Positions 12,110-14,363 of a DNA stretch of 14,363 bases are shown here, in pieces. The translations under genes and the position numbers were made by a program. The stretch lies in the UHGV virus genome UHGV-0778877; one strand, given 5' to 3'. Numbering within the stretch: position 1 is the first letter of the stretch; every line of letters starts with the position of its first letter. The notes beneath the pieces were generated by a model, which was not told where the DNA came from, ran no database searches, and was given only the letters and a program-made list of their open reading frames with translations. Source of the stretch: a virus.

Positions 12110-12582
12110 ACCTCAATCTCTCTGACCGTTCCGCCAGCTTCTTTGAATTTTGCAATCAGGCTGTCAGCCTTATGCTCGAACTGACCATAACCAGCCCCCG
12201 GCAGTGAAGCCCAGATATTGCTGCAACGGTCGATAGCCTGACGAATATCACCGCGATCAATCATCGGCAAAGCGCCACGTTCCTTAATCTGCTGCAGCGC
12301 AACAGCGTCCTGGCTTTTGGGAGAGAAGTCTTTCAGGCCAAGCTGCTTACGATAGGCATCCCACCAACGGGAAAGAAGCTGATAGCGACCGGCTGCTGTT
12401 GATTTGAGTTTGGGGTTTAGCGTGACAAGTTTGCGAGGGTGATCGGAGTAATCAGTGAATAGCTCTCCGCCTACAATGACGTCATAACCATGATTTCTGG
12501 TTTTCTGACGTCCGTTATCTGTTCCCTCTGACCATGCCAGCATATCGAGGAACGCCTTACGTTGATTATTGATTTCCACCAT
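12106..12582 (-). CDS. R: Endolysin R, lambda-type lytic transglycosylase, 158 aa
   Basis: [42 protein letters not shown]... recognisable as lambda R along its whole length; overlaps the S 3' end by 17 nt as in lambda. Confidence 0.95.
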
Positions 12583-12889
12583 CTTCTACTCCGGCTTTTT
12601 TAGCAGCGAAGCGTTTGATAAGCGAACCAATCGAGTCAGTACCGATGTAGCCGATGAACACGCTCGTTATATAAGCGAGATTGCTACTTAGTCCGGCGAA
12701 GTCGAGAAGGTCACGAATGAACCAGGCGATAATGGCGCACATCGTTGCGTCGATTACTGTTTTTGTAAACGCACCGCCATTATATCTGCCGCGAAGGTAC
12801 GCCATTGCAAACGCAAGGATTGCCCCGATGCCTTGTTCCTTTGCCGCGAGAATGGCGGCTAACAGGTCATGTTTTTCTGGCATCTTCAT
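12566..12889 (-). CDS. S: Holin/antiholin S, lambda-type class I holin, 107 aa with dual start motif (Met1 and Met3)
   Basis: [34 protein letters not shown]... recognisable as lambda S; ATG at 12889 (S107-equivalent) and ATG at 12883 (S105-equivalent). Confidence 0.95.
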
Positions 12890-12894
12890 GTCTT

Positions 12895-12910
12895 ACCCCC
12901 AATAAGGGGA
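12895..12910 (-). promoter_or_regulatory. sdi-like stem-loop upstream of the S dual start
   Basis: Minus-strand CCCCTTATTGGGGG immediately upstream of the S start codons, as in the lambda S leader, where this hairpin sets the holin:antiholin start ratio. Confidence 0.6.
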
Positions 12911-13014
12911 TTTGCTCTATTTAATTAGGAATAAGGTCGATTACTGATAGAACAAATCCAGGCTACTGTGTTTAGTAATCAGATTTGTTCGTGACCGATA
13001 TGCACGGGCAAAAC

Positions 13015-13044
13015 GGCATGAGGTTGTTAGCGCAACCTCCTGCC
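13015..13044. repeat. Imperfect 12-bp inverted repeat with 6-nt loop in the Q-S spacer
   Basis: Minus strand GGCAGGAGGTTG cgctaa CAACCTCATGCC (one mismatch) followed by GTTTTGCCC; function unknown; weak terminator-like on the minus strand. Confidence 0.3.
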
Positions 13045-13423
13045 ACCCACTTTCACGAAGGTCATGTGTAGAAAGCCGCAGCATAACTATCACTGATGAA
13101 TTCAGGATAGCCAGTGGCTACGGCCCAGTTTGGGTTGTGGCGGTCGGTGCTGAACTCCGACTTAATGACGATAGGCGTGTACCGACGCCTCGTTTTACTT
13201 CCTCCGCTTTCACGGCTTCACCCTAGACCAGCTTTACGAAATCCTCGTAAACCTAACCGCGGCAGATATGACCGGCACGGTGTACCATATCACGGACCGG
13301 CGGGTGTCTCGTTCACCTGATTAACGCATCAGCCTGCGTATTCACCACAACGATAAGAGCACTGCGCGGCACCTTTCACCAATTCCGCGAGGTCTGCGGG
13401 TTCAATGCTCTTACCTGTTGTGC

Positions 13424-13469
13424 AAATAAAAAAGCCACCGTTGCAACTTAAGAGTCACTAACGGCAGCT
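13424..13469 (-). terminator. Intrinsic terminator immediately downstream of Q (tR'-equivalent)
   Basis: Minus strand AGCUGCCGUU (17-nt loop) AACGGUGGCU forms a 10-bp stem (two G-U pairs), followed by TTTTTTATTT. Downstream sequence (tgcacaacaggtaagagcattga...) resembles, as I recall it, the lambda sequence just past tR'. Confidence 0.55.
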
Positions 13470-13478
13470 TACCTTCTA

Positions 13479-13508
13479 ATTATGGCTAAATGGCTAATTG
13501 CATGTCAA
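13479..13508 (-). promoter_or_regulatory. Candidate Q-dependent late promoter (pR'-equivalent) overlapping the Q stop codon
   Basis: Minus strand TTGACA (13508-13503), 18-nt spacer, CATAAT (13484-13479); the predicted transcript start is about 35-45 nt upstream of the terminator above, the arrangement expected for a Q-modified late promoter. Confidence 0.45.
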
Positions 13509-14004
13509 GACTTTTAACAGCAACATGCTTAACTTTCTCAACACGTTTACGCATTTTGAAAGCATTTTGCATTGGTTGGTACAAAACAAATAACGACGCT
13601 TTCAGGATGTCGTCAATTTCGTTTCTACAGGTTGCCAGTGAAGGTTTTCTCCATCCCTCGCCACCACGTCCACACATCTTGCGTGGCTTTGCAGTCGCGT
13701 GATAGTAGGATGCAATTGCTCGCTTAGATGAACCATGAGCGTAGTAGCTGAGGAGGATGCCAAAGGCTTTCTTGTCAATGTACATGACGGAATCAACGAC
13801 CTGAGAAATCAACATTCCATCATCATCATTACACATTGGCCTTGTCATAATTCTTCCCGGCTCTACGCTCTCCATGAACTTCGCTATTACGCTGCTCATG
13901 CGCTTTTCCAGACGACCTGAATAAACCCATGCTCCCCACAGTTCAAGCCAGCCATTCAGCCACTCGTGCTGCTCTTTGGTGAGGTTTAGTTCTCTTATGC
14001 CCAT
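13486..14004 (-). CDS. Q: Late-gene antitermination protein Q, QuuD/phage-82-type (not lambda-Q-type), 172 aa
   Basis: 172-aa ORF with ...[13 protein letters not shown]...[19 protein letters not shown]...LLSYYAHG..., the pattern I recognise from E. coli prophage Q homologues such as QuuD; located directly upstream of the lysis cassette; start overlaps the ninI-like stop. Confidence 0.8.
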
Positions 14005-14363
14005 GCGCCTTCTCCCTGTACATGAATCAATGTGAGGTTTCCGCAGAACACTGCGCCGGTATCGATATACATCTGGTTGGCAAACTTGAGTGGTTTCACT
14101 GCTGGCGTATGACCAAAGATGAACGTGTCCGCTCCTTTGATTTCTTTCACGATCCCGTCTTGTGAGTTGCTGATTCGTTCGCGGTTCCAGATTACCTGCT
14201 GATGATCAACTGGCTTTCCAAACTCGTATTCGTCACAGGGATAATCGGCGTGGCAGATGACATATTTTTTACCTTCGCTCACCAGTTCGATGATTAACGG
14301 AAGTTCATCTGCTTTATGGGGCAAGAGCTTTAGCCAGAATTTCTTTGTCGTAATCGAGATTAA
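13995..14363 (-). CDS. ninI: Ser/Thr protein phosphatase, lambda NinI (ORF221)-like, C-terminal part; 5' end lies beyond the window
   Basis: The frame is open from the window edge: ...[42 protein letters not shown]...[12 protein letters not shown]...[11 protein letters not shown], a metallophosphatase pattern recognisable as lambda NinI. The ORF-track start at 14324 is an internal TTG, not the true start. Confidence 0.85.

What the first reader, a model, noticed from the sequence alone, without database searches (positions are those of the whole stretch)
13424..13510. Compact Q-dependent late promoter and terminator module, and a mosaic junction at the terminator U-tract
A consensus -35 (TTGACA) and a CATAAT -10 with 18-nt spacing overlap the Q stop codon on the minus strand, and a strong hairpin plus T-tract follows within about 50 nt. 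That is the promoter / short leader / terminator arrangement on which Q proteins act. The Q protein is of the QuuD/phage-82 class, yet sequence from the terminator U-tract onward toward S looks lambda-like (as recalled), and the ninI-like gene upstream of Q also looks lambda-like. The Q module therefore appears to be a swapped cassette with a junction at the terminator.
Basis: partly seen in the sequence, partly recalled or inferred. Interest (0 to 1): 0.5.

Follow-up and report, generated by a model that had tools for sequence, protein, structure and literature searches.

The report
Phage-21-type late promoter–terminator switch
This is the ordinary, already described "late gene switch" of a phage-21-type antiterminator Q (promoter, Q-binding repeats, pause signal and terminator packed into about 85 bases), sitting in a P22-like E. 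coli phage as an exchangeable cassette whose right-hand joint lies at the terminator's T-run.

Summary
On the minus strand, TTGACA (13508-13503), an 18-nt spacer and CATAAT (13484-13479) span the Q stop codon. A 17-bp hairpin (-20.4 kcal/mol) and a T-run end at 13424.

Q belongs to the phage 21 family (Pfam PF06530; solved Q21 structures, E = 2e-92), not the phage 82 family (PF06323). QuuD is a distant member of the Q21 family.

The module is position-for-position homologous to the annotated phage 21 late region:
- The spacer holds two Q-binding subsites 8 bp apart, TTAGCC twice here versus TGAGCA twice in phage 21.
- The predicted start is G13472.
- The pause element TAAGCT and the terminator match phage 21 except for one T fewer in the T-run.

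The cassette swap is supported. Phage IME10 has the same flanks but carries lambda's Q, promoter and terminator. The joints lie at the Q start codon (14002) and at the T-run (13433-13424). Each joint has a short linker shared with lambda.

All of this is already annotated or published: Sf6, HK75 and phage 21 records, the CUS-3 "boundary sequence" bsq4, and the phage L paper for the variant Q-binding site.

Two things were added here. Q residues 95, 124 and 128 covary with subsite bases across 37 loci. A conserved long hairpin lies just downstream of the terminator.

The parts
13995..14363 (-). 3' part of a ninI-type phosphatase gene, which runs off the window end
   Evidence: 97.2% nucleotide identity to lambda ninI over 14363-14002. 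The reading frame ends at TAA 13997-13995. The Pfam scan of the 122-aa fragment found nothing.
14002..14017 (-). Left linker AGGGAGAAGGCGCATG (ribosome site plus Q start codon), shared by lambda-type and 21-type cassettes
   Evidence: Alignment A5. Lambda and IME10 identity ends at 14002. Phage 21 identity begins at 14017.
13486..14004 (-). Q antiterminator gene, 172 aa, phage 21 family
   Evidence: PF06530 E = 1.6e-25. PDB 6JNX and 6P18 (Q21) E = 2e-92. phrog_943 E = 6e-93.
13741..14004 (-). Q codons 1-88: the part that forms the ring or nozzle in the RNA exit channel of RNA polymerase (inferred from Q21)
   Evidence: About 98.5% nucleotide identity to phage 21 and 99% amino acid identity. 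The Q21 torus elements, with Ser29 and Thr54, are described in bioRxiv 10.1101/651190.
13472..13740 (-). Diverged patch relative to phage 21: Q codons 89-172 (helix-turn-helix H5, loop, H6 and tail) plus -35, Q-binding element, -10 and discriminator
   Evidence: 65-70% identity to phage 21, sharply bounded on both sides. Contact residues H95 to R and R128 to N are changed. S93, K94, R113, A124, T125 and R127 are kept.
13679..13711 (+). Antisense paQ-type promoter inside Q: CII-type TTGC-N6-TTGC at 13679-13692 and -10 TAGGAT at 13706-13711
   Evidence: Position-homologous to the annotated paQ and CII site of phage 21. Sequence read.
13503..13508 (-). -35 hexamer TTGACA of the late promoter pR'
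   Evidence: Invariant in 85 loci. Aligned with the annotated phage 21 -35.
13492..13497 (-). Q-binding subsite 1, TTAGCC (positions -25 to -20)
   Evidence: Direct repeat 8 bp upstream of subsite 2. Aligned with phage 21 TGAGCA. Subsite definition comes from PMC6606751.
13484..13489 (-). Q-binding subsite 2, TTAGCC (positions -17 to -12). It contains the Q stop codon TAG 13488-13486.
   Evidence: The C at -13, essential in phage 21, is kept.
13479..13484 (-). -10 hexamer CATAAT
   Evidence: Invariant in 85 loci.
13472..13472 (-). Predicted transcription start (G). Inferred, not mapped.
   Evidence: It has the same spacing as the annotated start of phage 21: 7 nt after the -10 and 1 nt before TAAGCTG.
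13465..13471 (-). Sigma-dependent pause element TAAGCTG (-10-like, +2 to +8)
   Evidence: Identical to the annotated element of phage 21. Across 37 loci a -10-like hexamer lies at +2..+7; it fits TAnnnT in 35 of them and is offset in L109 and L123.
13432..13470 (-). Terminator hairpin tR'
   Evidence: -20.4 kcal/mol, z = -2.6. Identical to the phage 21 late terminator.
13424..13433 (-). Terminator T-run TTTTTTATTT, and the right-hand mosaic joint
   Evidence: Phage 21 and Sf6 similarity ends at 13428/13423. Lambda and IME10 similarity starts at 13433. At least 6 different sequences follow it among 85 loci. The CUS-3 record marks Q stop to here as boundary sequence bsq4.
13403..13423 (-). Right linker GCACAACAGGTAAGAGCATTG, identical to the sequence after lambda tR'
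   Evidence: Alignment A2. Present in 5 downstream contexts.
13346..13423 (-). Long hairpin just after tR', with a 19-bp outer stem shared with lambda and a variable apical part
   Evidence: Covariation: 9 of 19 pairs show double changes, and 0 of 500 shuffles reach the observed values.
13140..13345 (-). Filler segment without a lambda counterpart (CUS-3, Huey and IME10 type)
12890..13139 (-). Lambda-like leader just upstream of S. It includes the 241 bases upstream of S that the CUS-3 record marks as bsq3.
   Evidence: 97.3% identity to lambda over 13139-12500. CUS-3 annotation.
12566..12889 (-). Lambda-type holin gene S, the first late gene
   Evidence: PF05106 E = 2.4e-30. Lies in the block that is 97.3% identical to lambda.

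Best explanation
The region 13510-13424 (minus strand) is the late-gene switch of a phage-21-type Q protein.

Proposed mechanism:
1. Host sigma-70 RNA polymerase starts at pR' (-35 at 13508-13503, -10 at 13484-13479), probably at G13472.
2. It pauses almost at once because sigma re-binds the -10-like TAAGCT at +2 to +7.
3. Without Q, it terminates at the hairpin and T-run (13470-13424) and releases an RNA of about 47 nt.
4. When Q has accumulated, two Q molecules bind the two TTAGCC subsites in the promoter spacer.
5. The upstream Q molecule inserts its N-terminal ring into the RNA exit channel of the paused polymerase. The polymerase then ignores this terminator and later ones, and transcribes S, R, Rz and the P22-type head genes.

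Status of the steps: the sequence elements and their homology are shown here. The start site, the pause, termination and Q action are inferred from phage 21, where they were demonstrated.

In evolutionary terms the unit from the Q start codon to the T-run (14004-13424) is an exchangeable cassette. It is bounded by short linkers that different cassette types share. Inside it, the DNA-reading half of Q and its binding site form a sub-unit that differs from phage 21. The polymerase-binding half of Q and the leader and terminator are virtually identical to phage 21.
For: Protein family:
- Pfam PF06530 and the solved Q21 structures at E = 2e-92.

Homology to phage 21:
- Alignment with the annotated phage 21 late region (-35, Q-binding element, -10, start site, pause element, terminator) puts every element in register.
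- 13471-13424 is identical to phage 21 apart from T-run length.

Conservation:
- -35, subsites and -10 are invariant in 85 loci that carry this allele.
- The same layout is found in 35 full-length Q21-type loci from at least a dozen genera.
- Roughly 400 of 5,426 complete E. coli genomes carry this allele at 95% identity or more.

Cassette exchange:
- Lambda identity (97.2%) stops at the Q ATG and resumes at the T-run.
- IME10 is the closest relative of the whole window (95.9%). It has the same flanks but lambda's Q, pR' and tR' (97.1% to lambda).
- Linkers are shared at both joints.

Sub-unit inside the cassette:
- Identity to phage 21 runs 98.5%, then 65-70%, then 100%, with sharp edges at 13740 and 13472.
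- The diverged part holds H5, the loop and H6, which read the DNA in Q21.
- Protein and DNA covary across 37 loci. Residue 128 R goes with subsite base 2 G (22 loci), and N goes with T (13 loci). Residue 95 R goes with base 6 C (18 of 19). Residue 124 R goes with base 3 G (4 of 4).
- By parsimony these changed together 4-6 independent times.
Against: - Nothing was measured in this phage: no start-site, pause or termination data.
- The promoter match alone would occur somewhere in 14.5% of shuffled windows.
- The hairpin has several G-U pairs and a bulge, and its z-score is modest at -2.6.
- The 18-nt spacer is one base longer than in phage 21, which shifts the -35 relative to the subsites.
- One locus (L093) has R95 with the TGAGCA site, so residue 95 is not a strict determinant.
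- The covariation counts come from related sequences. The subsites were parsed by a rule that favours repeats.
Confidence: 0.9

Rival explanations
1. One reading: the cassette is of the phage 82 / QuuD class, so loading would follow the phage 82 rules (different binding site layout, pause near +25).
For: QuuD does fall in the same Pfam family as this Q (PF06530). It aligns with this Q at 27% identity, E = 1e-10.
Against: - The phage 82 family is PF06323 (PMC9388147). This Q gives no PF06323 match at E up to 0.01.
- It is 85% identical to Q21 overall and 99% over residues 1-88.
- The pause element and terminator are identical to phage 21.
- A phage 82 Q sequence itself was not compared here.
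Confidence: 0.03
2. There was no cassette exchange. The region descends vertically, and the identity steps reflect locally different rates of change.
For: The whole region 14363-12500 is colinear with phage Huey at 98.1% and with CUS-3 from 14015.
Against: - Identity to lambda drops from 97% to none within one codon at 14002. A patchy 69% resumes at 13433, and 97% returns only from 13139.
- IME10 and the window are about 96% identical on both sides but hold unrelated Q proteins, PF03589 versus PF06530.
- The same Q cassette is joined to at least 6 unrelated downstream sequences.
Confidence: 0.03
3. The joint at the T-run exists mainly because the spot just after tR' is a preferred landing place for extra genes (tRNA-Asn/Thr in phage 21 and Sf6, an HNH endonuclease in HK629, stx genes in Stx phages). 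Whole Q cassettes being swapped there would then be secondary. This can hold together with the best explanation.
For: - Sf6 and the window share ninI, Q and the terminator at 97.8% up to 13423. They differ only in what follows: tRNA genes in Sf6 versus the hairpin and filler here. They rejoin at 13155.
- 35 of 85 loci have tRNA-Asn directly after the T-run, and 14 have the HK629-type sequence.
Against: The IME10 comparison shows the reverse case: same downstream sequence, different Q cassette. Both kinds of exchange therefore use this joint.
Confidence: 0.35
4. The short RNA ended at tR' is itself a regulatory RNA in lysogens, like StxS of Shiga toxin phages. That role, not only termination, would keep the leader identical between otherwise diverged phages.
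For: - The leader from 13471 to 13424 is 100% identical to phage 21, while the neighbouring 270 nt are only 65-70% identical.
- StxS shows that a pR'-tR' by-product can act in trans. Short RNAs are made from the late promoters of phages 21, phi80, 82 and P22 (PMC7547250).
Against: - The RNA would be only about 47 nt and almost entirely hairpin.
- An alternative leader and terminator (HK629 type) replaces it in 16 of 85 loci with the same Q.
- Recent recombination explains the identity just as well.
- There is no Rfam match.
Confidence: 0.1

Closest known systems
Phage 21 late regulatory region (pR'21, Q-binding element, sigma-dependent pause element, tR'; GenBank OL657228; structures 6P18 and 6JNX)
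   Same: - Same protein family, with residues 1-88 99% identical.
- Same order and spacing of -35, two subsites 8 bp apart, -10, start site and pause element.
- Pause element TAAGCTG and terminator are identical.
   Different: - Subsites are TTAGCC twice instead of TGAGCA twice.
- Contact residues differ: H95R and R128N.
- The spacer is 18 nt instead of 17.
- The -10 is CATAAT instead of AACACT.
- Q is 10 aa longer and its stop lies inside subsite 2.
- No tRNA genes follow the terminator.
The same allele in Sf6, HK75, HK629, CUS-3, Huey and Salmonella phage L ('type 3' late activator)
   Same: - 96-99% identical Q, promoter and subsites.
- pR', qut and tR' are annotated in Sf6 and HK75.
- The variant binding site AATTATCC/ATTTAGCC and divergence from residue 94 onward are described for phage L (PMC8022706).
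- CUS-3 marks Q stop to terminator as boundary sequence bsq4.
   Different: - The window has G where CUS-3, HK75 and L have T in subsite 1 (TTAGCC versus TTATCC).
- Upstream gene is ninI, as in Sf6 and Huey, not ninH as in CUS-3, HK75 and HK629.
- The downstream content differs from Sf6 (tRNAs) and HK629 (second leader plus HNH gene).
Lambda pR' - 6S RNA - tR' module
   Same: - Same logic and same genome position, between ninI and S.
- The flanks are shared: the ninI 3' end, the linker AGGGAGAAGGCGCATG, the 21 nt after the T-run, the outer stem of the following hairpin, and the last 250 nt before S.
   Different: - Unrelated Q protein (PF03589).
- Terminated RNA of about 47 nt here, against a lambda terminated RNA recalled as about 194 nt (the 6S RNA; length from my own knowledge, not from a tool call).
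- Different binding site.
QuuD / 434 / H-19B / 933W-type Q proteins
   Same: Same Pfam family PF06530.
   Different: Only 27% identity over 85 residues, and 127 aa long. Their promoter regions were not compared here.

Membership tests
Phage 21-type Q-dependent late switch | Q protein homologous to Q21 (Pfam PF06530) | tested here: met
   PF06530 E = 1.6e-25. Q21 structures 6JNX and 6P18 at E = 2e-92 over residues 1-162.
Phage 21-type Q-dependent late switch | Sigma-70 promoter at the 3' end of the Q gene | tested here: met
   TTGACA, 18 nt, CATAAT, scoring 11 of 12. Unique in the window. Aligned with annotated pR'21.
Phage 21-type Q-dependent late switch | Two direct-repeat Q-binding subsites 8 bp apart between -35 and -10 | tested here: met
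   TTAGCC at 13497-13492 and 13489-13484. Same register as TGAGCA twice in phage 21, with the essential C kept. The sequence is a variant.
Phage 21-type Q-dependent late switch | -10-like pause element at the start of the transcript | tested here: met
   TAAGCTG at 13471-13465, identical to phage 21.
Phage 21-type Q-dependent late switch | Intrinsic terminator directly downstream, before the late genes | tested here: met
   Hairpin of -20.4 kcal/mol plus T-run. Identical to the annotated phage 21 terminator.
Phage 21-type Q-dependent late switch | Sigma-dependent pausing, Q loading and terminator read-through actually occur | not testable with these tools
   Needs in vitro transcription or RNA mapping. 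Inferred from phage 21 work.
Phage 82-type Q (Pfam PF06323) | Match to PF06323 | tested here: not met
   No PF06323 hit at E up to 0.01. Family numbers come from PMC9388147.
Lambda-type Q (Pfam PF03589) | Match to PF03589 | tested here: not met
   No hit for this Q. Lambda Q and IME10 Q do match.
Lambdoid 'boundary sequence' at a module joint (as annotated in the CUS-3 and Sf6 records) | A short sequence conserved among phages whose neighbouring sequence on one or both sides is unrelated | tested here: met
   - The CUS-3 record annotates bsq4 at the homologous position.
- The 21-nt block after the T-run is shared with lambda and occurs in 5 downstream contexts.
- The 16-nt block at the Q start is shared by lambda, IME10, phage 21 and Sf6.

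The most novel reading that the evidence does not exclude
Q21-family proteins may fall into several mutually non-cross-reacting specificity classes, set by a simple pairing of residues with bases in each subsite:
- residue 128 with base 2
- residue 95 with base 6
- residue 124 with base 3

On this reading, the segment 'DNA-reading half of Q plus its binding site' (13740-13472) is exchanged as a unit. It would move independently of the polymerase-binding half of Q and of the leader and terminator. Co-resident prophages could then avoid switching on each other's late genes.

The window would belong to the R95/N128-TTAGCC class and phage 21 to the H95/R128-TGAGCA class. The phage L paper already suggests a different specificity for this allele. 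The family-wide pairing rule was derived here and is untested.
Probability: 0.45. Interest if true: 0.4.

Novelty: already known. Interest (0 to 1): 0.17.

Why it matters
It matters little as a discovery. The module is a textbook element. It is annotated in close relatives, present in hundreds of E. coli genomes, and its variant Q-binding site is already in print.

It is useful in three smaller ways:
- It corrects the family assignment from phage 82 to phage 21.
- It documents at base resolution that both cassette joints sit on short linkers shared with lambda.
- It offers two testable by-products: a residue-to-base pairing rule for Q21-type proteins, and a conserved structured element just after the late terminator.

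Tried and rejected
- Rfam search of 12500-14363 at E up to 1 found only a chance snoRNA hit. The leader and the downstream hairpin match no curated RNA family.
- The simple terminator scan did not report the tR' hairpin, so it was folded directly.
- The Pfam scan of the ninI fragment and of R gave nothing. ninI identity rests on DNA identity to lambda instead.
- The first blast script read only one file name and compared everything to a pooled file. It was redone per locus.
- A regular expression for the 3' arm of the downstream hairpin missed many variants. The arms were then taken by hand, which is a bias to keep in mind.
- The primary paper on the phage 21 late region (PMC207295) is not held. 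The 1988 paper on RNase III sites in the lambda late transcript could be found only as a citation.
- The tblastn of QuuD against the phage collection did not list a phage 82 record in the 60 rows shown, so phage 82 Q itself was never compared.
- I first took the variant binding site and diverged C-terminal half of Q to be a new observation. That was dropped after finding it described for phage L.

Full report
**What is there**

On the minus strand the window reads as follows:
- the 3' part of a ninI-type gene, up to 13995
- Q, 14004-13486, 172 aa
- a compact non-coding module
- about 530 nt of leader
- lambda-type S (12889-12566), then R and Rz, then P22-type head genes

The module contains:
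- TTGACA at 13508-13503
- an 18-nt spacer
- CATAAT at 13484-13479
- a 17-bp bulged hairpin at 13470-13432 (-20.4 kcal/mol, z = -2.6)
- TTTTTTATTT at 13433-13424

The Q stop codon TAG (13488-13486) lies in the promoter spacer. The promoter is the only site scoring at least 11/12 in the whole window. Shuffled windows give a mean of 0.15 such sites.

**What it is**

Q matches Pfam PF06530 and the solved structures of the phage 21 Q protein at E = 2e-92.

According to PMC9388147, PF06530 is the Q21 family, PF03589 the lambda family and PF06323 the phage 82 family. This Q matches neither of the latter two. The right label is phage 21 type.

The complete phage 21 genome (OL657228) is annotated with -35, Q-binding element, -10, start site, sigma-dependent pause element and terminator. 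Aligning it with the window puts every element in register.

By that homology:
- The start is G13472.
- The pause element is TAAGCTG at 13471-13465.
- The two 6-bp Q-binding subsites, defined in PMC6606751, are 13497-13492 and 13489-13484.
- The RNA ended at the T-run would be about 47 nt.

**How it most likely works**

These steps are inferred from phage 21:
1. RNA polymerase starts at pR'.
2. Sigma re-binds the -10-like TAAGCT and the enzyme pauses.
3. Two Q molecules bound to the subsites dock on the paused enzyme.
4. The upstream Q threads its N-terminal ring into the RNA exit channel.
5. Terminator hairpins can then no longer form, and the late genes are transcribed.
6. Without Q the enzyme stops at 13428-13424.

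None of this was measured for this phage.

**Fine structure relative to phage 21**

Nucleotide identity falls into three sharply bounded blocks:

| Region | Identity to phage 21 | Content |
|---|---|---|
| 14017-13741 | about 98.5% | Q codons 1-88 |
| 13740-13472 | 65-70% | Q codons 89-172, -35, subsites, -10 |
| 13471-13424 | 100% (apart from T-run length) | pause element and terminator |

The diverged block is the part of Q that reads DNA in the Q21 structures: helix H5, the loop at residues 105-121, and helix H6. It also contains its target.

Of the residues reported to touch bases, H95 and R128 are changed to R and N. R113, A124 and R127 are kept. Both subsites change in concert from TGAGCA to TTAGCC.

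This is not new. The phage L paper describes the same allele, the variant site AATTATCC/ATTTAGCC, the divergence from residue 94 onward, and the likely change of specificity (PMC8022706).

**Extension made here**

A scan of one genome per species returned 35 full-length Q21-type loci from Escherichia, Pantoea, Yersinia, Serratia, Morganella, Providencia, Xenorhabdus, Erwinia and others.

All keep the same layout: -35, two subsites 8 bp apart, -10, then a -10-like hexamer at +2..+7. That hexamer fits TAnnnT in 35 of the 37 loci and is offset in L109 and L123.

Across these loci plus phage 21 and the window:
- Residue 128 R goes with G at subsite base 2 (22 loci), N with T (13 loci), and K with T in one locus. 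The only departure is one mis-parsed locus.
- Residue 95 R goes with C at base 6 (18 of 19). H, Y or L go with A (18 of 18).
- Residue 124 R goes with G at base 3 (4 of 4).

On a tree of the C-terminal domain these characters change 4-6 times each, in step.

Caveats: the sequences are related, the subsite parser favours repeats, and L093 is an exception for residue 95.

**The mosaic claim**

Word-9 blastn of 14363-12500 against reference loci gave these results:

| Phage | Matching window region | Identity | Note |
|---|---|---|---|
| lambda | 14363-14002 | 97.2% | ninI; ends at the last base of the Q start codon |
| lambda | 13433-13340 | 69% | starts in the T-run |
| lambda | 13139-12500 | 97.3% | runs into S |
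| phage 21 | 14017-13428 | 84.6% | Q through terminator |
| Sf6 | 14363-13423 | 97.8% | tRNA-Asn/Thr follow; similarity resumes at 13155 |
| IME10 | 14363-14002 | 97.5% | |
| IME10 | 13433-12500 | 95.6% | |

IME10 is the closest relative of the whole window (95.9%). Between its two matching blocks it carries a lambda-type Q (PF03589). That stretch is colinear with lambda at 97.1% through Q, pR', the 6S region and tR'.

Both joints carry short linkers common to the unrelated cassettes:
- AGGGAGAAGGCGCATG at 14017-14002
- the T-run plus GCACAACAGGTAAGAGCATTG at 13423-13403

Among 85 loci with this Q allele, the promoter and subsites are invariant. There are two leader and terminator types. At least six unrelated sequences follow the T-run.

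The CUS-3 record already marks Q stop to terminator as 'boundary sequence' bsq4, and the 241 nt before S as bsq3. The Sf6 and HK75 records annotate pR', qut and tR' at the homologous positions. The joint is real, recurrent and already annotated.

'Lambda-like from the U-tract to S' is true only in patches. 13339-13140 has no lambda counterpart.

**Prevalence**

The 317-nt stretch 13740-13424 is found in 755 of 5,426 complete E. coli genomes. About 400 records match at 95% or more, which is this allele. About 360 match at 60-80%, presumably the phage 21 allele.

**Verdict**

- The feature is already known and ordinary.
- The residue-to-base pairing rule and the conserved hairpin after the terminator are small additions that need experiments.

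Noticed in passing
window 13423-13346 (minus strand); lambda locus L004 1787-1863: A long hairpin starts right after the terminator T-run. Its 19-bp outer stem is shared with lambda, and its apical 31-75 nt come in at least 5 unrelated versions.

In an arms-only alignment of 11 variants (including Pantoea, Erwinia and Izhakiella prophages):
- 93.8% of cells pair
- 9 of 19 pairs show changes on both sides
- none of 500 shuffles reaches these values
- slid controls pair at 33-62%

There is no Rfam match. A 1988 paper title cited in PMC7547250 reports RNase III processing sites in the lambda late transcript. This hairpin is a candidate for such a site, but the location could not be checked. The arms were picked by hand.
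   Followed up: partly
L007 (HK629) 2020-2800; 16 of 85 loci: In HK629-type phages the same Q, -35, subsites and -10 are followed by a different leader (pause element TATGCT), a different terminator, and then an HNH endonuclease gene (phrog_99). After that comes a promoter-less second copy of the phage-21-type leader and terminator, starting exactly at TAAGCTG. It looks like an insertion between the -10 and the pause element that brought its own pause element and terminator.
   Followed up: partly
window 13679-13711 (plus strand): A CII-type site TTGCGTGGCTTTGC (13679-13692) and a -10 TAGGAT (13706-13711), with a 17-nt spacer, lie antisense inside Q. They sit at the positions homologous to the annotated paQ promoter of phage 21. 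They are kept even though this lies in the diverged part of Q.
   Followed up: partly
window 13516-13486 (minus strand): This Q allele is 10 residues longer than Q21 ([10 protein letters not shown]). The extra codons are read through the -35 hexamer and subsite 1, and the stop lies in subsite 2. In Q21 the last six residues contact RNA polymerase in the loading complex, so the extension might matter. This was not examined.
   Followed up: no
window 13114-13320 (plus strand) and 12944-13093 (minus strand): There are two small ORFs in the late leader. The 68-aa ORF on the opposite strand is annotated as hypothetical in phage Huey and has no PHROG match. The 50-aa ORF matches phrog_22751, of unknown function (E = 2.6e-29). 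Whether either is expressed is unknown.
   Followed up: partly
window 13325-13365 (minus strand): A stretch of about 40 nt within the filler after the hairpin matches Klebsiella and other phages at 90-98% in otherwise unrelated contexts (query positions 76-116). It may be another short shared linker.
   Followed up: no
L093 (Shimwellia pseudoproteus prophage): This locus has R95 but the phage 21 site TGAGCA twice. It is the single exception to the residue 95 to base 6 pairing. It is otherwise nearly identical to phage 21, so it may be a recent single substitution.
   Followed up: no
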